Shown here: positions 6,074 through 50,916 of the stretch, one piece after another
Numbering within the stretch: position 1 is the first letter of the stretch
How the letters are laid out: each line of letters begins with the position of its first letter
Source: Escherichia virus TH54
Strand: one strand, 5' to 3'
DNA: 64,000 nucleotides
Sequence record: MT446420.1
Position numbers and translations under genes: made by a program
Notes under the pieces: model-generated
What the model was told of the DNA's origin: nothing
Seen by the model: only the letters and a program-made list of their open reading frames with translations
Databases searched by the model: none

Positions 6074-6688
6074 TTAGTTCAAAACAGTTAAATGCCAAAC
6101 AGTATACAGGTTATTCAATGGGTGTGTTTCAATCAAGTCTACGCGGAGCGTAGTCCCAGCGGGAAACATAAACTCATCTTCATCATTAACCAGGTGCAAG
6201 TTTGACTTCCTGGTTGCTTCTGGATATGCACCATTGAACTCTTCAGGAGGAGCACCGCAAATCATTTTGAAGATTGCTTCCTGATAGTTATACGCATATG
6301 GTGCATTGTTTATACAGAAAATGTTCCTTGTGCCATAGAAACTGTATGATGCAAAATTTCTTGCAACCTGCCAGTCCCTGGAAAAACTCATTACACGGTT
6401 GAACTCAATTGTCGCACCAACATATCTTAAATCTTCCAGGTATTCCATAGTTTTCTTTGATATACCACGGAACAATGCCGCAGGCGGTGCAGTATTCAGA
6501 TTGTTGCGGATAATCCTGGTTAAGTCTTCTTGAATCAAGTCGGGTTTATTTTCCATACACTGCCAGAGTACTGATTGCTCATTATCTGTATAAAGAGCAT
6601 CAATCTCAGCTTGACATTGGTCACGAAAAGACTCACTAGAAGCGGCAGTGTCAATAATTCCATTCAAAACGTCATCAGTGTACAGCAT
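6074..6688 (-). CDS. modA: ADP-ribosyltransferase (Mod family)
   Basis: R-S-ExE signature (LFRGIS, SFS, EDEFMFP); start trimmed to ATG 6686-6688 because upstream codons translate the promoter leader. Confidence 0.75.
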   Translation of the reverse strand: MLYTDDVLNGIIDTAASSESFRDQCQAEIDALYTDNEQSVLWQCMENKPDLIQEDLTRIIRNNLNTAPPAALFRGISKKTMEYLEDLRYVGATIEFNRVMSFSRDWQVARNFASYSFYGTRNIFCINNAPYAYNYQEAIFKMICGAPPEEFNGAYPEATRKSNLHLVNDEDEFMFPAGTTLRVDLIETHPLNNLYTVWHLTVLN

Positions 6689-6717
6689 TTTATTATCCTC
6701 ATCAGTAGTTGATAGGA

Positions 6718-6749
6718 ACATATTAACGTGTCTTATTGCTCTTGTACAC
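6718..6749 (-). promoter_or_regulatory. early-type sigma70 promoter
   Basis: Reverse complement GTGTACA-N16-TTAATATGT then leader CCTATCAACTACTGATGAGGA. Confidence 0.45.
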
Positions 6750-7293
6750 AGTCAAGAACATAATAATCACCAACAAATCCAGCATCAACTATCACGAATT
6801 TCTGGTCAGCTGGAACAAACCATTCAAGCTCAGAATCAATCATGTCCATATATTCTTCACGTCTTAACGTTGCCGCCTGTTCGGAACCAGAAGCAGTATT
6901 GAAGAATTCCAGTGGAACATCAAGCGCAATTTTGCGCATCGCATCATGGTAACAAAAAGCTTTTGTATGATTCAATCTGATGATAGTCCTTGATACATAT
7001 TCCATTGCAGCAAAATCCCTGGCAATACCATAGTCTTCTGTAAAGGAGGTTATCCTTCCAAATTCAAAAGGTTGCATTGATTCTTTTGCTTCATCTAATA
7101 AATCAATCTCTTGCTGGGTTACCCCACGATACAAGACTGTATCGGGTATAGATAACCTTGACTTGATGATTGAGTTGACATTTGAATGCAAGGTCTTATC
7201 AACCTTTGCTGTACGGCACTCAAATAATGAAGCTATCTCCATTTCACTAAATTTTAACTGGTTGGGTTCGGTATCAGATTTGATGATGTTCAT
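6733..7293 (-). CDS. modB: ADP-ribosyltransferase (Mod family)
   Basis: 186 aa; LYRGV, SFT and EWFVP motifs; tandem with modA. Confidence 0.7.
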   Translation of the reverse strand: MNIIKSDTEPNQLKFSEMEIASLFECRTAKVDKTLHSNVNSIIKSRLSIPDTVLYRGVTQQEIDLLDEAKESMQPFEFGRITSFTEDYGIARDFAAMEYVSRTIIRLNHTKAFCYHDAMRKIALDVPLEFFNTASGSEQAATLRREEYMDMIDSELEWFVPADQKFVIVDAGFVGDYYVLDCVQEQ

Positions 7294-10373: not shown

Positions 10374-10571
10374 ATGCTAAAACTATCTAGTCTAATTCAA
10401 GCCATCAAAGGCAGTCGTAAGCGAACGATTCTGGTCCTTTCGATACTCTGTTTAGTTCTACTCTGGAACTTTATTGTTGCCCCTGTTGCATTGGCACATG
10501 GTGTTATATTGCCAGTCGTCGCACTCGAATCAGTTGTAGATGTTTCACTGGCATTAATCGGCCTTATATAG
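10374..10571 (+). CDS. small hydrophobic membrane protein
   Basis: Plus-strand ORF with AAAGGAGGA Shine-Dalgarno before ATG; two predicted TM segments; lies in the 56-61 gap. Confidence 0.4.
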   Translation: MLKLSSLIQAIKGSRKRTILVLSILCLVLLWNFIVAPVALAHGVILPVVALESVVDVSLALIGLI

Positions 10572-10679
10572 GTGGAACTTACTGGTTATGCCTATCGCTG
10601 CATCACAAGGGGTACACTTACCTCAGGTCACAATGGAACATATCCATTCCATCATCGGTTACTTTACCGGAATCCCTTC

Positions 10680-11708
10680 CTAAACTTTTGCGTACTTCGA
10701 AAGTCGCATTCTCGCCATCAGCCCTTGAGCAACGTTATCGGCCATATATGATTCGATTTGTTCAGGGGTTGCACCCTCCGATTTAACCATCTCATTTATG
10801 TCTTTAGTATGCCATGGTGCATTGTCCCAGAACATAACAGCTTCGCCAGCTTCAACGAGTTTCTTCATACGTTTAATCGTATCCGGATGTCTTGGCTCGT
10901 TGTCCATTACCCATACTCGGGTTTCAGCATAAGGAACGGCTTCCAATGCTAATGTTCCACCGGTTATCGCAATGCTGTTAGGGATAAACAAACTATCAAT
11001 CGGACCTTCCATTACCCACACGCGCTTGCGCTCATCAATCTTGTCTACGCCATAGACTTTGGAAGCTTCTGGGTGAGCTTTGATTGTGATATATTTTTGT
11101 GGTGCATCTTTGCGAAGAGCTCGTCCTTGGAAAGATTCGATTTCTTTTTTGCCGTTGAAGATAGGAATAACCAAGCGTGGTTCATTCGTTTCATTCTTAT
11201 ACGTCCCAGGATTAACGGAGTTAACTAATGCAGGCCATTTGTTTGTAAACCATAACCGGTTCCAAACATTGCTCGGAATACACCGACTTTTAACATACTT
11301 AACTATCGGATGCGCTTCTGGTAAAGTATCGATTCTTTCGCAAAAAGCAAGCTCTTCAATAACCGGAGTTTTTTCTGGTTCTTTCGGAGTTTCTGCAACT
11401 TCATTACGTTGTCGACCGAAGGCATTTTCCTTGTACTTCTCAACCATATATTCCCGGTGCAAATCCGGCTCAAACTCTTTTATGTATTTGCTTATATGCG
11501 TGGAGTAGTCACAGTTAAAACATTTCACGTAAACCGCACCATCAGACGGATTGGTATACGCCCAGAATCGAGCCTTATGTGAATCTTTCTGGGAGTCCCC
11601 GCAAACCTTACAACGACAGTTTGCTTTAAATGTGCTCCCGGTGACTTCTCTATAACGTGGTTGATACGATAAAGCTCTGACTGCAAATTCTTTATCAATA
11701 TATGACAT
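10680..11708 (-). CDS. 61: DNA primase
   Basis: 342 aa; N-terminal Cys4 zinc ribbon; resemblance to T4 gp61. Confidence 0.9.
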   Translation of the reverse strand: MSYIDKEFAVRALSYQPRYREVTGSTFKANCRCKVCGDSQKDSHKARFWAYTNPSDGAVYVKCFNCDYSTHISKYIKEFEPDLHREYMVEKYKENAFGRQRNEVAETPKEPEKTPVIEELAFCERIDTLPEAHPIVKYVKSRCIPSNVWNRLWFTNKWPALVNSVNPGTYKNETNEPRLVIPIFNGKKEIESFQGRALRKDAPQKYITIKAHPEASKVYGVDKIDERKRVWVMEGPIDSLFIPNSIAITGGTLALEAVPYAETRVWVMDNEPRHPDTIKRMKKLVEAGEAVMFWDNAPWHTKDINEMVKSEGATPEQIESYMADNVAQGLMARMRLSKYAKV

Positions 11709-12316: not shown

Positions 12317-12676
12317 TTAACCTCGCTTCATGAAGGCATTAAAAATCTGGTCATCAATATCAGTAGGCAGTTCTTGAGCTTTAACCCAAGCCCCTTCCAG
12401 AATGTCATTTGCTTCAGTAGATATCATGACCCCAATTTCAGGGTTTCCGGTTATCCATGCTGCACAATCGCGTACATTCTTTTTATCAAATGGATAGCCA
12501 CGAGTATCTTCATAAGGTCCACTCATTACCATAAATGAGCGAGCCTTTATGATAACATCATCTTTAACGATAATATAACCAATCGCCTGATTAAACCGAG
12601 GCTCACGAAATTCATAACGGGCATTACCATTATTATTGCTCACCAGTTCAAAATTCAGAAAATTATAATAACTCAT
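12317..12676 (-). CDS. hypothetical protein, paralog pair member (C-terminal DDQIFNAFMKR)
   Basis: 119 aa; last 11 aa and the underlying DNA nearly identical to the next gene. Confidence 0.5.
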   Translation of the reverse strand: MSYYNFLNFELVSNNNGNARYEFREPRFNQAIGYIIVKDDVIIKARSFMVMSGPYEDTRGYPFDKKNVRDCAAWITGNPEIGVMISTEANDILEGAWVKAQELPTDIDDQIFNAFMKRG

Positions 12677-12677
12677 A

Positions 12678-13118
12678 TTAATCTCGCTTCATGAAGGCAT
12701 TAAAAATTTGGTCGTCAACTGAATATACAGGGGTTTCCAGAAGTTTCAAAAGACTGTTTTTAATGTACTTACCCGGGATACCCATATTAACAATACTGTC
12801 ATTCAATTCATTATCAGGGTTGATGTCTTTAAATTCAAACCCATCAAATTCAACCTTGTCAGGAATACCATCAGCGAAAAAATAAACCAATTGGTGCATT
12901 GTATTGCGCGAAAATAATTTAGACTTGACCGCAATAAGTTCTTGCCAATGGTTTAATTCTTTGTTAAGAAGTTTATGAGCAAACGTAATTCTATTATCAC
13001 TATCAACAAGAAAATAACCCAGGTATTGAATGGGTTCGTCGCTCCAAAACATCCTGTATGCTTGTGCATTTTGATTTTTACAACGAAGTTTTTTGATAAC
13101 TAAATTTCTGTTAATCAT
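12678..13118 (-). CDS. hypothetical protein, paralog pair member (C-terminal DDQIFNAFMKR)
   Basis: Track ORF trimmed to ATG 13116-13118 immediately after the spackle stop. Confidence 0.5.
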   Translation of the reverse strand: MINRNLVIKKLRCKNQNAQAYRMFWSDEPIQYLGYFLVDSDNRITFAHKLLNKELNHWQELIAVKSKLFSRNTMHQLVYFFADGIPDKVEFDGFEFKDINPDNELNDSIVNMGIPGKYIKNSLLKLLETPVYSVDDQIFNAFMKRD

Positions 13119-13119
13119 T

Positions 13120-13413
13120 TTATTCACCTGTAACCCATTGAACAATCTTGCTGTTGTCAAATGAAGCATCGCAATACAGAACATAGTTATACTGCATAAC
13201 GTCACCAGAAGCCAGTTGGTCAGATACTTCTTTAACCATATCTGGGCGGTCACGTTTAGTAATATTCATGATATCAGCATAAATCTGATGTTCAACATCA
13301 GTCTGGTCAGCAGTCATAGACCACTCACAAAGGTCTTTATCAAGTCCAGCGGTTACAGGAGCTGTACCACATGATGCTACGGTAAGAATTGCCGCGATTA
13401 ATAACTTTTTCAT
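13120..13413 (-). CDS. sp: spackle periplasmic protein
   Basis: 97 aa with signal peptide; DKDLCEWSMTADQT...MQYNYVLYCD resembles T4 Sp. Confidence 0.8.
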   Translation of the reverse strand: MKKLLIAAILTVASCGTAPVTAGLDKDLCEWSMTADQTDVEHQIYADIMNITKRDRPDMVKEVSDQLASGDVMQYNYVLYCDASFDNSKIVQWVTGE

Positions 13414-25321: not shown

Positions 25322-26978
25322 CTTTTTTCATCTGGAGATGTTGCCCGTATGCTTCCGGGTCATGGTCTCGGTGACTGATAATAAAAATGTTGGTGTCTTC
25401 CAATTTGTTCAGGATGGTAGCAATTGCTTTAACACCCTCTACATCAGTGGCCGAGTCAAAAACTTCATCCAGAATCAATGTGTTAATATTAACACCAGAT
25501 ACTTTCGCAGCAATATCGCGCCATGTAAACAGCAATGCAATATCTATACGAGCTTTTTCACCCTGGCTAAATGATGCATAGCTAAAGTCTTCACGTCCAC
25601 GAGATTTAATCGTTTCGTTGAACTCTTCATCTAACGTAAAGCTATAATCAGCTTCCATAACTTTAAGATAAGCGTTTATCTGCTTATTAAAGATAGGAAT
25701 ATATTTCTTAATAATCGCGCCCTTGATACCAGAATCTTTCAACATATCCGTTAGGATACCACGTTGATATTTTTCCATCACAAGGTCAGATTTCTGTTTG
25801 ACTATTTTATCAAGCTGGTCTTGAAGCATTTTAATGTCTGCTGCATGGTCAATGAATTCTGACTTGGCCTGCTCGATTAATGCTTTAACCCTTTTAGCTT
25901 TTTCGACAGTCTGGACTAAGGTTTGTTTCTTAGTTTGAATGTCTTGAGCTATTGTACGCTGGTTTTGTCTTGCCTTGGTATACGCATCAAATTGCTCCTG
26001 AACAGCATTCTGGCGAGCTTTATGCTTATCAGCCGATGCATTACATTCTTCAATCTTTGACTCAATCCTGGCGACAATAGGGTCTCCTGGATGCAACTGA
26101 CTAGCACAGGTCTGACAACAACCACCTTTCTCGTACAGGCTAACAACCTTTCGATAATCGTCAATCTTCGATTTAATCAGGAATGATTCCTGCTTTAACT
26201 TTGTGAGTTCGTGCTCAGGGTCTTCTCCCAAGATTATCTCGGTCAGTCTTGTCGTTGCTTCTTCGATAGTTGCCTTGATTCCACGTGCTTCTGTGGCAAG
26301 TTCATCATACATCGTTTGCAGTCGCAACAGATTATCACCCGACAATTTTCTTTGACGGTCTTCGTTGTCCTGATAGATTTTAATCTGTTGAACGATACCG
26401 TCATGCTGTACATCCATCACCTGGATTTGGCTATTGACTTCGCGGATAAGAGATTTGTTCAGCTTATCCATATCGGCCAGTACAGAAACCTCTAAAAGGT
26501 CTTCGACAAGCTTTCTTCTGGCAGGAGTGGATAGGCCCATAAAAGGGGTATATCCAGCTGTGCCGAGTACGACAATTTGTTTGAAGCTTGCGTATGACAT
26601 TCCGATAAGCTGTTCAAATTCCGCTTGGAAGTCTTTACTGCTGGCAGATTCATCAAGACGTTTACCGCCACAAGAGATTTCAAAAACATTGGGTTTTTGC
26701 CCGCGTTTGATATAGTATTCTTTTCCATCATATTCCATCCACAATTCAACGAGCATATCTTTTTTGTTGCTCGAGTTAATCAGCTGACCTTTCTTTACAT
26801 CACGGAAAGGCTTACCGAACATAGCAAAGGTAACCGCTTCAAGGAACGTAGATTTACCTGCGCCATTCTTGCCGGTTACAAGAGTTTTCTGGACTTTATC
26901 CAGTTCAACAGTAATCGGTTGAGCACCAACCGACATAATATTTTTATAGATAACTTTCTTTAGCTTAAACGTTTTCAT
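25296..26978 (-). CDS. 46: recombination nuclease ATPase subunit (Rad50/SbcC-like)
   Basis: 560 aa; Walker A GKNGAGKST; coiled coil with CxxC zinc hook; resemblance to T4 gp46. Confidence 0.9.
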   Translation of the reverse strand: MKTFKLKKVIYKNIMSVGAQPITVELDKVQKTLVTGKNGAGKSTFLEAVTFAMFGKPFRDVKKGQLINSSNKKDMLVELWMEYDGKEYYIKRGQKPNVFEISCGGKRLDESASSKDFQAEFEQLIGMSYASFKQIVVLGTAGYTPFMGLSTPARRKLVEDLLEVSVLADMDKLNKSLIREVNSQIQVMDVQHDGIVQQIKIYQDNEDRQRKLSGDNLLRLQTMYDELATEARGIKATIEEATTRLTEIILGEDPEHELTKLKQESFLIKSKIDDYRKVVSLYEKGGCCQTCASQLHPGDPIVARIESKIEECNASADKHKARQNAVQEQFDAYTKARQNQRTIAQDIQTKKQTLVQTVEKAKRVKALIEQAKSEFIDHAADIKMLQDQLDKIVKQKSDLVMEKYQRGILTDMLKDSGIKGAIIKKYIPIFNKQINAYLKVMEADYSFTLDEEFNETIKSRGREDFSYASFSQGEKARIDIALLFTWRDIAAKVSGVNINTLILDEVFDSATDVEGVKAIATILNKLEDTNIFIISHRDHDPEAYGQHLQMKKVGRFTVME

Positions 26979-27199
26979 GTATTGTTCTCACGAATTGTTT
27001 GTTCAGCATATTCTAGCATTTCTTCGGAAGAAGCAAACACGTCGTCAAGTTCCATGGCCCATGAAACACCTTCAGAATATTCAGAAGTGACATACATAGT
27101 TCCGGTATACCAAGAACCATCCACGTTCCATTCTACATTACCGAACCAGCCATCGCCAATATGAAAATCATGTTTATACATTTTCATCATTATAAGCAT
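26975..27199 (-). CDS. hypothetical protein
   Basis: 74 aa. Confidence 0.45.
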   Translation of the reverse strand: MLIMMKMYKHDFHIGDGWFGNVEWNVDGSWYTGTMYVTSEYSEGVSWAMELDDVFASSEEMLEYAEQTIRENNT

Positions 27200-27437
27200 C
27201 CTTGATGCATGATTCAGCCATATGAATTAATGTCTCTGGAGTATCATCTTCCATTACATTAAAACTAAATTCTACGGCCCAATCGGTGACTACATAGACT
27301 TTGATAAGTTGACCGGTTTCCAGGTCAGTGATAGCTTCAAACCAATACTTAATAGTATTCGGTTGATTATCGTCGTCAACCACATCACATTCGCGGATAT
27401 GTTCAAGCCCCGCTTCATTAAAATCATAAAGTCTCAC
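27174..27437 (-). CDS. hypothetical protein
   Basis: 87 aa acidic. Confidence 0.45.
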   Translation of the reverse strand: MRLYDFNEAGLEHIRECDVVDDDNQPNTIKYWFEAITDLETGQLIKVYVVTDWAVEFSFNVMEDDTPETLIHMAESCIKDAYNDENV

Positions 27438-48593: not shown

Positions 48594-49166
48594 TCAGCTT
48601 GTCAATTCGAGCCAATGTTTCCTGCATAAAGATACGTACGATTCATTCCCACCGACCAATACTTGCTCGCCGTCCTTTACAGCAGCACCGTCGATTACTC
48701 GAGCGGTCATGGTTGCTTTCCGGCCGCAATGGCAGACGCCCTTTAATTCAACCAGTTTATCCGAAATAGCCAGAAGTCTGGCTGAACCGGGAAATAACTG
48801 ACCCCGAAAATCTGTTCTTAGCCCGTAACACATAACGGGGATATTGTAATTATCAACCACTCGTGCTAACTGGTCAATTTGCTCTGGCAACAAAAATTGA
48901 GCTTCATCGACCAGGACACAATGGATGTCCTTTTGAGACTCGGCCCATTTATAGAATTCAAACAGGTTCATGTCGGCCGTTACCAGGTTTGCTTCCTGGC
49001 TAATACCAATACGTGATTTAATTTCAGATTCCGAGTCCCGATTATCAATAACAGGCTTTAGCAAAAGCACACTCATTCCACGCTCTTTATAGGAATAAGC
49101 GGCAGTCAGCAATGAAGCTGTTTTGCCTGCATTCATTGCTGCGTAATGATAAATTAAACTCGCCAT
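48594..49166 (-). CDS. tk: thymidine kinase
   Basis: 190 aa; Walker A AMNAGKT; C-terminal Cys pairs; resemblance to T4 Tk. Confidence 0.9.
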   Translation of the reverse strand: MASLIYHYAAMNAGKTASLLTAAYSYKERGMSVLLLKPVIDNRDSESEIKSRIGISQEANLVTADMNLFEFYKWAESQKDIHCVLVDEAQFLLPEQIDQLARVVDNYNIPVMCYGLRTDFRGQLFPGSARLLAISDKLVELKGVCHCGRKATMTARVIDGAAVKDGEQVLVGGNESYVSLCRKHWLELTS

Positions 49167-49175
49167 ATCACCTTC

Positions 49176-49361
49176 TTAAAGCGTATTCACATAAGCTATT
49201 AATTCGTTTTCTTTCTCATCAAATCGATTAGCAAATTCTTCCAGATGGTCGGCATCTATCGGGCCATATTCATCATAAAAGGCGTTTGCTTCCGTATGCT
49301 CGTCCAAAAGCTCATGGATAAGCTCAAACAATCTACTTTTCTGACTAATACTTAAACTCAT
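49176..49361 (-). CDS. hypothetical protein
   Basis: 61 aa. Confidence 0.4.
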   Translation of the reverse strand: MSLSISQKSRLFELIHELLDEHTEANAFYDEYGPIDADHLEEFANRFDEKENELIAYVNTL

Positions 49362-49564
49362 TTCAGTTCACCATATCGTACAAATTCAGGGTGTTCACAA
49401 TCACCAGAATGGAGACCTTCACCTTCATGGTTAGGACATCCTTTATTAGAACAGTACCACCAGTAATCAAATCCACATTCCATTTCATCGTTGCATAAAA
49501 CTGCGATTACTGGCCATTCGCATTTTTCACATTTGGCCGTTTTAAGAATTCGGGCTTGGCTCAT
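49358..49564 (-). CDS. Cys-rich small protein
   Basis: 68 aa; CEKCEW..C...C..CPNHEG..CEH. Confidence 0.45.
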   Translation of the reverse strand: MSQARILKTAKCEKCEWPVIAVLCNDEMECGFDYWWYCSNKGCPNHEGEGLHSGDCEHPEFVRYGELK

Positions 49565-50015
49565 AATCCACCACTATTAAATCAATATCAGGAGTAAACA
49601 TGTCGATTAATTTAGAAACCTTATCCCAATCGCCGCCAGCAATACCACAACCAATACGAGGAATATAAATTACCGGTTTAAACAAAAGGGTTTCTGCCTG
49701 TAGATTTAATTCTATCATACAATTTACTAAAGCGCCATAATCAAGATTAGGGCCCGGTTCATATTGGGTGTACAAATTATAACACATACCAAACCCAGTA
49801 GGCTTATGTTTAAAAACAATAGACATATCACCGAGTTTTTCTCTGGAACCATATTCAGTAGTGGTTTTATCTATTTCTAAAACTTTTGGATAAGCCTTCG
49901 CCAACTGTCCAGCTACGCCAGAACCCATTGTGTGAAAGCAGTTGCAACCATGTGCAATAATATTGCCTTGAAGAAAGAGGGCGACAATATCGCCCTTAAT
50001 ATACTGGGTAATCAT
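49542..50015 (-). CDS. macro-domain protein
   Basis: 157 aa; GDIV...NIIAHGCNCFHTMGSGVAGQLAKAYP matches the macro-domain nucleotide-binding signature. Confidence 0.65.
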   Translation of the reverse strand: MITQYIKGDIVALFLQGNIIAHGCNCFHTMGSGVAGQLAKAYPKVLEIDKTTTEYGSREKLGDMSIVFKHKPTGFGMCYNLYTQYEPGPNLDYGALVNCMIELNLQAETLLFKPVIYIPRIGCGIAGGDWDKVSKLIDMFTPDIDLIVVDYEPSPNS

Positions 50016-50371
50016 TTAGAGTTCAATCCTCTATTATATGAATCCACTAACCTGTCAACCATACTGGTGCAGGCCGCCTTATATTTTGCACTTGAAAGAA
50101 TGCAATCCATTTCAAATAATTTCTTTTCATATTTGTTGGATAATACATTCTTTTTCAAAAGTGTATGTTCAACATCATTTTGACCATCTTTATATGCCGC
50201 GGTGAGCTTGGCGCTGAACTGGATTACACAATCCACATTGCTTGCTGCGCAATAATCTTTAGCCGTCCTCGTTGCATATTCTATGATGCTGTTGTTGTCA
50301 TCGCTCTGTACTGAAGCTATTCCTCCCATGCTGAATACTAACCCTATGGCTAAAGTGATAACTCTTACCAT
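50012..50371 (-). CDS. secreted protein (signal peptide)
   Basis: 119 aa; N-terminal hydrophobic signal sequence. Confidence 0.5.
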   Translation of the reverse strand: MVRVITLAIGLVFSMGGIASVQSDDNNSIIEYATRTAKDYCAASNVDCVIQFSAKLTAAYKDGQNDVEHTLLKKNVLSNKYEKKLFEMDCILSSAKYKAACTSMVDRLVDSYNRGLNSK

Positions 50372-50373
50372 TT

Positions 50374-50916
50374 TTAATCCACCGTTTTTAATAGGCCTCG
50401 TGATTTTAAGTAGTTAGCTTTTTCTAGGACTTGTGAAGCATACTTATTACCAGCTTTCACATTCCACCCTGCGTTATATGATGATAGTGTTTTCCTTATA
50501 TCCCCCTTATGAATATCCAACCAGTATGAAAGCTCAATGTAAGCCCAGCGTGCACTGTTCTCTCTCTTGCTTATCATCTTGATTATTTCTTTATCTGTCA
50601 TTGTCCACCCAACCTGTTTCACGCGTTCGCGCACGGTTGGAAGATAATTTTGGAATATACCATATGCATGGTGCTTATCTTTATTTAATCCAGTATTAAT
50701 CCCAGCAGAACTCTCCTGCCAGGTTAAACCAGCCATGATATATCCCAAACCATTATGTTGGTGCGGATTTTCTTTGTACTTACCATTTTTCTGGAACTGT
50801 TCTCCAAACGCATAAGCATATTGAAGGTTTTCCATTTGTTCATTACTGAAAGTAGGCTCTACGCTATGGGCAGACATACTAACTGTCAATAGTAAGGTGG
50901 CGATTACTTTTTTCAT
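50374..50916 (-). CDS. secreted lytic transglycosylase (SLT domain)
   Basis: Signal peptide; SLT motifs WQESS, YGIFQ and SYNAGWN. Confidence 0.65.
   Translation of the reverse strand: MKKVIATLLLTVSMSAHSVEPTFSNEQMENLQYAYAFGEQFQKNGKYKENPHQHNGLGYIMAGLTWQESSAGINTGLNKDKHHAYGIFQNYLPTVRERVKQVGWTMTDKEIIKMISKRENSARWAYIELSYWLDIHKGDIRKTLSSYNAGWNVKAGNKYASQVLEKANYLKSRGLLKTVD

What the first reader, a model, noticed from the sequence alone, without database searches (positions are those of the whole stretch)
49358..50015. Macro-domain protein downstream of tk, in a genome that also encodes ModA/ModB ADP-ribosyltransferases
The 157-aa ORF has the macro-domain signature GDIV...NIIAHGCNCFHTMGSGVAGQLAKAYP, aligned with the NAAN...GGGVxGAI core. 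It overlaps a 68-aa Cys-rich ORF upstream. Macro domains bind or hydrolyse ADP-ribose adducts. In a phage this could reverse host ADP-ribosylation-based defence (for example DarT-type DNA ADP-ribosylation) or tune the phage's own ART activity.
Basis: partly seen in the sequence, partly recalled or inferred. Interest (0 to 1): 0.55.

Follow-up and report, generated by a model that had tools for sequence, protein, structure and literature searches.

The report
Phage macrodomain that counters DarTG2 defence
This gene is the counterpart of phage T4 tk.4 (adfM), a small ADP-ribose-removing enzyme that T4 needs to grow on bacteria carrying the DNA-modifying DarTG2 defence, so the finding is real but already explained.

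Summary

The window comes from a T4-like phage (Gaprivervirus; about 97% identical here to vB_EcoM_RZ and vB_YenM_P8). The gene sits in the same place as T4 tk.4, between vs and tk, and is 58% identical to it.

A 2025 preprint renamed T4 tk.4 as adfM: knocking it out makes T4 sensitive to DarTG2.

Those marks are on arginine, which a different enzyme family removes.

The catalytic centre is not of the DarG type. An invariant glutamine (Q84) replaces the DarG/TARG1 lysine, as in Streptomyces SCO6735, which cleaves thymidine-linked ADP-ribose.

The main rival is an ADPR-1''-phosphate phosphatase role like Vibrio phage Gary Adpp (39% identical). Its NARP1 partner genes are missing from the window and from the closest complete genome.

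No biochemistry exists for this allele. Verdict: ordinary and already known; interest is low.

The parts
49542..50015 (-). Macro-domain gene, 157 aa; ortholog of T4 tk.4 (adfM)
49941..49952 (-). Codons H22-G-C-N25: first active-site motif, equivalent to SCO6735 His24 and Asn27
   Evidence: H22 and N25 are invariant in 58 homologs. They align with SCO6735 H24/N27. Their roles in SCO6735 are described in PMC9411070. Coordinates checked.
49764..49766 (-). Codon Q84: glutamine at the position of the catalytic lysine of TARG1 (K84) and DarG (K80); equivalent to SCO6735 Gln85
   Evidence: Invariant in 58 homologs. The profile alignment puts it opposite TARG1 K84. The multiple alignment with verified PDB sequences agrees. 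SCO6735 Q85A is inactive (PMC9411070).
49626..49652 (-). Codons G122-C-G-I-A-G-G-D-W130: diphosphate-binding loop (IGCGxAGGxW); G124 is equivalent to SCO6735 Gly128, and A126 sits where TARG1 has Asp125
   Evidence: G122, G124 and W130 are invariant. Alignments.
49358..49564 (-). 68-aa Cys/His-rich protein in the tk.3 slot, overlapping the macro gene by 23 nt. It is a neighbour; no functional link is shown.
   Evidence: PF23895 at 2.7e-27 and PHROG 2306. Present in 776 phage records, mostly T-even-like. T4 has a different family (PHROG 2008) in this slot.
50012..50371 (-). vs (valyl-tRNA synthetase modifier); its TGA stop overlaps the macro ATG (ATGA), which suggests coupled translation
   Evidence: PHROG 1256 at 1.4e-32. 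Overlap read directly from the sequence.
49176..49361 (-). 61-aa DUF7438 protein (like T4 tk.1/tk.2); ATGA overlap with the 68-aa gene
   Evidence: PF24219 at 2.2e-16 and PHROG 653. T4 has two copies of PHROG 653 here. Overlap seen.
48594..49166 (-). tk, thymidine kinase; the synteny anchor
   Evidence: PF00265 at 4.5e-58 and PHROG 592.
6074..7293 (-).
   Evidence: PHROG 832 'RNA polymerase ADP-ribosylase' at 1.9e-38 and 8.7e-28. Annotated 'ADP-ribosylase' in phage vB_EcoM_RZ.

Best explanation
The gene is the ortholog of T4 tk.4, recently renamed adfM (anti-DarT factor macrodomain). It is made as part of the tightly packed vs.1-vs-tk.4-...-tk gene block.

Proposed mechanism. The host toxin DarT2 attaches ADP-ribose to thymidines in single-stranded DNA, which blocks replication. 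The macrodomain binds that ADP-ribose and hydrolyses the bond at ribose carbon C1'', restoring the DNA. The phage can then grow on DarTG2 hosts.

Catalytic centre. Catalysis would use the Gln-type centre described for Streptomyces SCO6735 (here H22, N25, Q84 and the G122-W130 loop). In that scheme the glutamine positions the substrate and a water molecule. It differs from the lysine mechanism of DarG and TARG1.

Shown here: the fold, the class, the conserved residues, and orthology and synteny with T4 tk.4.
Taken from the literature: the T4 knockout phenotype and the SCO6735 chemistry.
Inferred: that this 58%-identical allele does the same job, and that it works by hydrolysis rather than by binding DarT2.

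For: 2. Orthology. The protein is 58% identical to T4 Tk.4 over 153 aa, E 3e-70. The gene order vs.1-vs-tk.4-...-tk is the same. Relatives SP18 and RB69 annotate the gene as tk.4. In a neighbour-joining tree it falls in the T-even clade, next to the subclade that holds T4 Tk.4.

3. Function of the ortholog. tk.4 was the single significant hit on a DarTG2 host, and the knockout is sensitive to DarTG2.

4. Catalytic residues. H22, N25, Q84 and G124 are invariant in 58 homologs. They align with SCO6735 H24, N27, Q85 and G128. SCO6735 cleaves thymidine-linked ADP-ribose on DNA and protects against DarT, and its Q85A mutant is inactive.

5. Precedent. An unrelated phage macrodomain, PhiKZ gp104, removes DarT2 marks from DNA in vitro.
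Against: 1. There is no biochemistry for T4 Tk.4 or for this allele. The T4 result is genetic and comes from a preprint.

2. This allele is only 58% identical to the tested T4 protein, and its second loop differs (GCGIAGGDW here, GAGIGKGNW in T4).

3. The SCO6735 DNA-contact lysines K34 and K89 are not conserved; this protein has S32 and G88 there. The protein is acidic, pI 5.05. PhiKZ AdfM, a proven DNA de-ADP-ribosylase, has the same pI.

4. A 39%-identical relative with the same motif set, Vibrio phage Gary Adpp, is a proven ADPR-1''-phosphate phosphatase. The residues therefore do not settle the substrate.
Confidence: 0.72

Rival explanations
1. The protein is mainly an ADPR-1''-phosphate phosphatase like Adpp. 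It would convert the product of RES-type NAD+ phosphorolysis (the aRES defence) back to ADP-ribose, for NAD+ rebuilding or detoxification.
For: It is 39% identical (E 2e-25) to Vibrio phage Gary Adpp, which converts ADPR-1''P to ADPR in vitro. Adpp has the same H..NC, NxY[G/T]QY and IGCGxAGGDW motifs. A tblastn with Adpp retrieves a similar number of phage records, with nearly the same organism breakdown, as the window protein does: 2,704 against 2,760. A NARP1-linked Acinetobacter phage macrodomain nests among the Tk.4-like sequences in the tree. PHROG and RefSeq call the family 'phosphatase'.
Against: Adpp works only together with Adps and Namat; inactivating any one of the three abolished anti-aRES activity. 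A local tblastn with Gary Adps and Namat finds nothing better than E 0.5 in the window or in the complete 170-kb genome of the closest relative, vB_EcoM_RZ. No Escherichia, Shigella or Yersinia phage appears in the NARP1-associated macrodomain table. The syntenic T4 ortholog has a DarTG2 phenotype.
Confidence: 0.12
2. The protein removes ADP-ribose from RNA or protein targets of other host ADP-ribosyltransferase defences, for example the mRNA-modifying CmdT. Any DarTG2 activity would be secondary.
For: TARG1-class macrodomains cleave several C1''-linked adducts (Iyer et al.). The discussion in PMC11825919 suggests that phage anti-DarT factors may also detoxify other DNA or RNA ADP-ribosylating defences.
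Against: CmdTAC still defends strongly against wild-type T4, which carries tk.4. The T4 transposon screen linked tk.4 specifically to DarTG2. I found no direct evidence for RNA substrates.
Confidence: 0.06
3. The protein acts without catalysis. It would bind and block DarT2 directly, or soak up an ADP-ribose-derived molecule.
For: Catalytically dead SCO6735, DarG and TARG1 all inhibit DarT by binding it, and SCO6735 does so most strongly.
Against: The active-site residues H22, N25 and Q84 and both glycine loops are invariant across 58 diverse homologs. That pattern is expected for an enzyme rather than a binder. The protein lacks the C-terminal DarT-binding domain of DarG: 157 aa, matching only positions 3-149 of the 338-position DarG model.
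Confidence: 0.05
4. The protein erases or tunes ADP-ribosylation laid down by the phage's own Alt, ModA and ModB enzymes.
For: ModA/ModB homologs are in the same window at 6074..7293. The closest complete genome carries an Alt-type gene.
Against: [quoted passage not shown] Arginine-linked ADP-ribose is cleaved by DraG/ARH enzymes, whereas TARG1-like macrodomains cleave ester and nucleic-acid linkages. The macro gene is about 42 kb from modA/modB and is not co-located with them.
Confidence: 0.03

Closest known systems
T4 Tk.4 / AdfM (anti-DarT factor macrodomain; bioRxiv 10.1101/2025.11.20.689424)
   Same: Same size (157 and 155 aa), 58% identity, same position between vs and tk, and the same invariant H, N and Q residues. 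T4 needs it to grow on DarTG2 hosts.
   Different: This is a divergent allele class. About 317 phage records carry an allele at least 90% identical to this one, while T4's is 57.5% identical. The second glycine loop differs (AGGD here, GKGN in T4). The gene immediately downstream differs: a PF23895 zinc protein here, PHROG 2008 in T4. This allele has not been tested.
Streptomyces coelicolor SCO6735 (PDB 5E3B) and Bacteroides BT1257 (2AFC/2FG1)
   Different: Only 26-28% identical. The motif is NLYTQY here and NMIGQH there. The DNA-contact lysines K34 and K89 are absent. SCO6735 and BT1257 are basic cellular proteins, whereas this is an acidic phage protein.
DarG antitoxin macrodomain (M. tuberculosis 5M3I, T. 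aquaticus 5M31) and PhiKZ gp104 'AdfM'
   Different: DarG and PhiKZ gp104 have the FPTK(K/D)xWR motif with a catalytic lysine; this protein has glutamine. Score on the NCBIfam DarG model is 31.4 bits against a cut-off of 250. On the PADLOC DarG model this protein scores 31.8 bits and PhiKZ gp104 scores 132.9. There is no C-terminal DarT-binding domain. BLASTP against PhiKZ gp104 gives only E 0.001. The two phage proteins called 'AdfM' are therefore separate lineages.
Adpp, the ADPR-1''-phosphate phosphatase of NARP1-AP operons (Vibrio phage Gary gp137; bioRxiv 10.64898/2026.01.28.702374)
   Same: 39% identical, with the same Gln-type motif set. Both queries match about 2,700 phage records with nearly the same organism breakdown.
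   Different: Adpp lies between adps and namat and needs both of them. This genome has neither. Most NARP1-linked macrodomains branch outside the T-even clade.
Yeast Poa1p (6LFQ) and human TARG1 (4J5R)
   Different: Poa1p has Ser, and TARG1 has Lys84 plus Asp125, where this protein has Q84 and A126. Identity is only 23-24%.

Membership tests
Macro domain superfamily (Pfam PF01661) | Score above the Pfam gathering threshold | tested here: met
   34.2 bits against a cut-off of 22, covering residues 22-136 of the protein and positions 2-117 of the 118-position model.
Macro domain superfamily (Pfam PF01661) | Mixed alpha/beta macro fold with glycine-rich ADP-ribose-binding loops | tested here: met
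TARG1 / DarG / Poa1p / SCO6735 class of macrodomains ('ALC1-like' in PMC9411070) | Closest structures belong to this class rather than to the MacroD, viral or PARG classes | tested here: met
T4 Tk.4 / AdfM orthologous group | Full-length similarity to T4 Tk.4 | tested here: met
   58% identity over 153 of 157 residues, E 3e-70.
T4 Tk.4 / AdfM orthologous group | Conserved position between vs and tk in a Tevenvirinae genome | tested here: met
   The window has vs.1-vs-macro-...-tk and T4 has vs.1-vs-tk.4-tk.3-tk.2-tk.1-tk. The closest genomes are Gaprivervirus, subfamily Tevenvirinae.
T4 Tk.4 / AdfM orthologous group | Required for growth on DarTG2-carrying hosts | not testable with these tools
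   Known only for T4 itself. It needs a knockout of this phage or complementation of T4 lacking adfM.
DarG antitoxin (NCBIfam NF048014, PADLOC DarG) | Score above the equivalog cut-off | tested here: not met
   31.4 bits against a cut-off of 250. PADLOC gives 31.8 bits, against 132.9 for PhiKZ gp104.
DarG antitoxin (NCBIfam NF048014, PADLOC DarG) | Catalytic lysine (TaqDarG K80) in an FPTKxHWR motif | tested here: not met
   This protein has Q84 in an NLYTQYEPG motif at that position.
DarG antitoxin (NCBIfam NF048014, PADLOC DarG) | C-terminal DarT-binding domain and an adjacent darT gene | tested here: not met
   The protein is 157 aa and matches only positions 3-149 of the 338-position model. 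Its neighbours are vs and a 68-aa zinc protein.
Gln-type DNA de-ADP-ribosylases (SCO6735-like) | Gln at the catalytic position, plus the His24, Asn27 and Gly128 equivalents | tested here: met
   Q84, H22, N25 and G124 are all invariant in 58 homologs and align with SCO6735. Their roles are described in PMC9411070.
Gln-type DNA de-ADP-ribosylases (SCO6735-like) | Basic DNA-contact residues Lys34 and Lys89 | tested here: not met
   S32 and G88 occupy the aligned positions. The alignment of the second residue lies in a loop and is less certain.
Gln-type DNA de-ADP-ribosylases (SCO6735-like) | Hydrolysis of thymidine-linked ADP-ribose on single-stranded DNA | not testable with these tools
   Needs an in vitro assay with a DarT2-modified oligonucleotide.
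Adpp (NARP1-AP ADPR-1''-phosphate phosphatase) | Homology to a characterised Adpp | tested here: met
   39% identity to Vibrio phage Gary Adpp, E 2e-25.
Adpp (NARP1-AP ADPR-1''-phosphate phosphatase) | Encoded in a NARP1 operon next to adps and namat | tested here: not met
   A local tblastn with Gary Adps and Namat gives a best E of 0.5 in the window and in the full vB_EcoM_RZ genome. In Gary the three genes are adjacent.
MacroD / YmdB-type O-acetyl-ADP-ribose deacetylases | Score above the family cut-off | tested here: not met

The most novel reading that the evidence does not exclude
The phage Gln-type macrodomain family may be a general hydrolase for groups attached to ribose C1'' of ADP-ribose. 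One active site would serve two different counter-defences: removing DarT2 marks from thymidine in DNA (the AdfM role) and removing phosphate from ADPR-1''-phosphate made by RES-type NADases (the Adpp role). The window protein would have both activities. The sharply different allele classes at the T-even tk.4 locus (at least 90% against about 57% identity) would reflect selection by different host toxins. My evidence does not exclude this: AdfM and Adpp share every catalytic motif, match about the same number of phage records with the same organism mix, and intermix partly in the tree.
Probability: 0.3. Interest if true: 0.45.

Novelty: already known. Interest (0 to 1): 0.25.

Why it matters
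The finding is ordinary as a discovery. Macro domains occur in about 41% of myoviruses (PMC9503650). A 100% identical protein is already encoded in GenBank in phage vB_EcoM_RZ. The T4 ortholog has been named an anti-DarTG2 factor.

It still has some practical value. It adds a divergent, widespread allele to a counter-defence family for which only genetics on one allele exists.

It also shows that T-even AdfM uses the glutamine-type catalytic centre of SCO6735, not the lysine of DarG. So two proteins both called 'AdfM' (T4 Tk.4 and PhiKZ gp104) are independent solutions to the same defence.

Finally, the same family supplies the Adpp phosphatase of NARP1-AP operons. Database labels such as 'phosphatase' or 'macro domain protein' therefore cannot say which counter-defence a given phage has. 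That matters when predicting host range for therapeutic T4-like phages.

Tried and rejected
1. Rejected: 12.9 bits against a cut-off of 291, and clearly lower structural scores.

2. True DarG family member. Rejected: the score is far below the cut-off, there is no catalytic lysine, and there is no C-terminal domain.

3. Catalytic residues as a way to separate a DNA glycohydrolase from an ADPR-1''P phosphatase. This failed. Adpp, SCO6735 and Tk.4 share the same motif set. The T or G before the glutamine does not separate them either, because the NARP1-linked Acinetobacter phage macrodomain has T-Q.

4. Overall charge as a hint of DNA binding. Uninformative: pI is 5.05 for this protein and also for the proven DNA enzyme PhiKZ AdfM.

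5. A dedicated promoter or terminator around the gene. The counts do not differ from shuffled sequence: 11 promoter-like sites against 11.7 expected, and 2 terminator-like sites against 2.6.

6. A tblastn with yeast Poa1p to find phage Adpp. It did not retrieve Vibrio phage Gary. I took the sequence from the preprint's supplementary table instead.

7. A functional link between the macro gene and the overlapping 68-aa zinc protein. There is no evidence for one. T4 has a different gene in that slot, and in phage phiD1 about 200 nt separate the two matches.

8. The neighbour-joining tree has no support values and is used only as a rough guide.
Full report
**Observation**

The window has a 157-aa ORF at 49542..50015 on the minus strand. 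Its ATG is at 50015-50013 and its TAA stop at 49544-49542.

It scores 34.2 bits against Pfam Macro PF01661 (E 2.8e-8, curated cut-off 22). It scores 9e-71 against PHROG 335, which PHROGs labels 'phosphatase'.

It is a real gene:
- A tblastn finds homologs in 2,760 phage records.
- An alignment of 58 diverse homologs has 14 invariant positions: G8, H22, G23, N25, C26, G33, A35, N80, Y82, Q84, P119, G122, G124 and W130.
- AlphaFold2 run on that alignment gives mean pLDDT 95.1 and pTM 0.90.

The 68-aa ORF at 49358..49564 (minus strand) overlaps the macro ORF by 23 nt. It has 7 Cys and 3 His and matches PF23895 'Phage zinc binding domain' at 2.7e-27.

Two ModA/ModB-type ADP-ribosyltransferase genes are in the window at 6074..6721 and 6733..7293.

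One correction is needed. All these genes are on the minus strand, so the macro gene is upstream of tk in the direction of transcription, and the 68-aa gene is downstream of the macro gene.

**Genomic setting**

The tk-to-vs.1 segment (48594..50916) is 97.6-97.8% identical to Yersinia phage vB_YenM_P8 and Escherichia phage vB_EcoM_RZ, and 95.5% identical to Shigella phage SP18. vB_EcoM_RZ is classified as Tevenvirinae, genus Gaprivervirus. 58.5 kb of the 64-kb window aligns to vB_EcoM_RZ at 88-97% identity.

On the minus strand the gene order is:
- vs.1 (50374..50916)
- vs (50012..50371)
- the macro gene
- the 68-aa zinc protein
- a 61-aa DUF7438 protein (49176..49361)
- tk (48594..49166)

T4 has vs.1, vs, tk.4, tk.3, tk.2, tk.1 and tk in the same order. 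The T4 gene in the matching position is tk.4 (155 aa, PHROG 335), and it is 58% identical to the window protein over 153 residues (E 3e-70). SP18 and RB69 annotate their copies as tk.4.

The vs stop codon and the macro start codon overlap as ATGA. So do the stop of the zinc-protein gene and the start of the DUF7438 gene. A scan for promoters and terminators found no more sites than in shuffled sequence. The genes therefore look co-transcribed and translationally coupled. This is an inference.

**Fold and class**

The protein therefore belongs to the TARG1/DarG/Poa1p/SCO6735 class. The YmdB-type NCBIfam model scores only 12.9 bits against a cut-off of 291.

**Catalytic residues**

I assembled reference sequences whose identity I checked against PDB chains:
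- SCO6735
- BT1257
- TARG1
- Poa1p
- the two DarG macrodomains

To these I added T4 Tk.4, PhiKZ gp104 and Vibrio phage Gary Adpp, and aligned them all.

The invariant Q84 sits where TARG1 has its catalytic Lys84 and DarG has Lys80. The profile alignment shows this independently. SCO6735 and BT1257 also have glutamine at that position.

The SCO6735 study reports four relevant points (PMC9411070):
- Gln85 occupies the position of the DarG/TARG1 lysine.
- Q85A and Q85E abolish activity.
- Asn27 and Gly128 are important for activity. A His24 mutant was also inactive, but it misfolded.
- The enzyme efficiently removes ADP-ribose from thymidine in DNA and protects against DarT.

In the window protein the equivalents H22, N25, Q84 and G124 are all invariant. 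A126 sits where TARG1 has Asp125. Poa1p has serine at the Q84 position. Two SCO6735 DNA-contact lysines (K34, K89) are not conserved; the window protein has S32 and G88 there.

**What is known about the ortholog**

A 2025 preprint used a transposon library of T4 (HIDEN-SEQ). On a host expressing DarTG2 the only significant hit was tk.4. A clean tk.4 knockout became sensitive to DarTG2. The authors renamed the gene adfM and proposed that it removes ADP-ribose from DNA (bioRxiv 10.1101/2025.11.20.689424).

It is genetic evidence on a 58%-identical ortholog. It is not biochemistry on this protein.

T4-like phages are already known to carry two other anti-DarT factors. These are AdfA, a small protein thought to act by binding DarT, and the NADAR enzyme AdfN (gene 30.3), which acts against DarTG1 (PMC11825919).

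**Two different proteins are called AdfM**

A 2026 Cell Reports paper gave the same name to PhiKZ gp104, which removes DarT2 marks from DNA in vitro (PMC13309987).

That protein is a genuine DarG-type macrodomain:
- E 9.4e-25 to M. tuberculosis DarG
- an FPTKDNWR motif containing the lysine
- 132.9 bits on the PADLOC DarG model

The window protein scores 31.8 bits on that model. It scores 31.4 bits on the NCBIfam DarG equivalog, whose cut-off is 250. Against gp104 it gives only E 0.001. It also lacks the DarG C-terminal domain.

It therefore works like DarG, most likely, but is not a member of the DarG family. T-even phages and chimalliviruses reached the same counter-defence with different macrodomain lineages.

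**Main rival**

A 2026 preprint shows that some phages add a macrodomain, Adpp, to the NARP1 NAD+-rebuilding operon. Adpp from Vibrio phage Gary converts ADPR-1''-phosphate, the product of RES-type NADases, into ADP-ribose (bioRxiv 10.64898/2026.01.28.702374).

I took the Adpp sequence from the supplementary table. What I found for the rival:
- Adpp is 39% identical to the window protein (E 2e-25).
- It has the same motif set, including the glutamine.
- It retrieves a similar number of phage records, with nearly the same organism breakdown, as the window protein.
- In a rough neighbour-joining tree one NARP1-linked Acinetobacter phage macrodomain sits among the Tk.4-like sequences. The Vibrio and Pseudomonas ones branch outside them.

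So the residues alone cannot decide the substrate. Both reactions release a leaving group from ribose C1'', so one active site could plausibly perform both. This is an inference.

Context argues against the rival as the main role here:
- Adpp needs both NARP1 enzymes.
- In Gary the three genes are adjacent.
- A local tblastn with Gary Adps and Namat finds nothing better than E 0.5 in the window or in the whole 170-kb vB_EcoM_RZ genome.
- No Escherichia, Shigella or Yersinia phage is in the published table.

**Other readings**

Erasing the phage's own Alt/ModA/ModB marks is unlikely. Those enzymes belong to the R-S-E (cholera-toxin) family, which chiefly modifies arginine. Arginine-linked ADP-ribose is removed by DraG/ARH enzymes, whereas TARG1-like macrodomains cleave ester and nucleic-acid linkages (PMC8120803).

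A role against the mRNA-modifying CmdTAC system is not supported, because CmdTAC still defends strongly against wild-type T4.

A purely binding role is possible, because dead SCO6735, DarG and TARG1 can all block DarT by binding it. The invariant active site argues for catalysis.

**The neighbouring zinc protein**

The 68-aa protein occurs in 776 phage records, mostly T-even-like ones, in the same tk-vs region. T4 has a different family in that slot. In phage phiD1 about 200 nt separate the zinc-protein and macrodomain matches. I found nothing that ties its function to the macrodomain. The 23-nt overlap looks like ordinary tight packing.

**Allele classes**

Identity to the window protein across phage records is strongly bimodal:
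- about 317 records at 90% or more, including the Tequatrovirus phiD1 and Escherichia phage ime09 at 94%
- only 92 records between 60% and 90%
- T4 itself at 57.5%

Divergent alleles therefore circulate at one locus among T-even phages. Only the T4-type allele has been tested.

**Verdict**

The finding is already known in kind: an identical protein is encoded in GenBank, many records annotate it as a macro domain protein, and the T4 ortholog is a named anti-DarTG2 factor.

What this analysis adds:
- The enzyme has the glutamine-type (SCO6735-like) catalytic centre.
- It is not a DarG family member.
- It shares its family with the Adpp phosphatase, so the true substrate range of this allele still needs a direct assay.

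Noticed in passing
L003:827-1971 (Streptomyces phage Annadreamy genes 151 and 152): A phage macrodomain very close to SCO6735 (E 2.6e-47 to PDB 5E3B) lies directly after a Sir2 gene. This is the sirtuin-plus-macro pair that Iyer et al. 2022 predicted to be a toxin-antitoxin-like system in actinophages.
   Followed up: partly
window 49542..50015, compared with PhiKZ gp104 (sequence from PMC13309987): The name AdfM is used in the literature for two macrodomains of different lineages: T4 Tk.4 (glutamine type) and PhiKZ gp104 (DarG lysine type). Their PADLOC DarG scores are 36.0 and 132.9 bits.
   Followed up: yes
window 49358..49564 (-): The 68-aa Cys/His-rich protein (PF23895, PHROG 2306) fills the slot where T4 has an unrelated tk.3 (PHROG 2008). 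It occurs in 776 phage records, nearly all T-even-like. Its function is unknown.
   Followed up: partly
window ~10570..10702, compared with vB_EcoM_RZ 26649..27398: The window lacks the 249-aa hypothetical gene that vB_EcoM_RZ carries immediately downstream of the primase gene. The blastn blocks jump from RZ 26671 to 27401 while the window coordinates stay continuous.
   Followed up: no
window 12317..12676 and 12678..13253 (-): Two adjacent ORFs of unknown function (PHROG 4122 and PHROG 8539) end in nearly the same C-terminal peptide, DDQIFNAFMKRG and DDQIFNAFMKRD. They lie in the region upstream of the primase gene, where I expected the AdfA (gene 61.2) homolog from my memory of the T4 map. 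I did not test whether either one is AdfA.
   Followed up: no
window 49542..50015; phage records: Identity of tk.4 homologs to the window protein is bimodal: about 317 records at 90% or more and T4 at 57.5%. The window-type allele is also present in the Tequatrovirus phiD1 and in Escherichia phage ime09, which suggests allele exchange at this locus.
   Followed up: partly
L006:15814-17874 and L006:20574-21032 (vB_EcoM_RZ, outside the window): The closest complete genome also has an Alt-type ADP-ribosyltransferase. It also has a 152-aa ORF at the position where I expect T4 30.3 (AdfN, anti-DarTG1), downstream of the DNA ligase gene. The phage may therefore carry several ADP-ribosylation tools. 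The identity of the AdfN candidate was not checked.
   Followed up: no
window 50374..50916 (-): The vs.1 homolog (PHROG 600) has only a weak, sub-threshold match to the SLT lytic transglycosylase domain (15 bits against a cut-off of 21.3), although some records annotate it as an SLT-domain protein.
   Followed up: no
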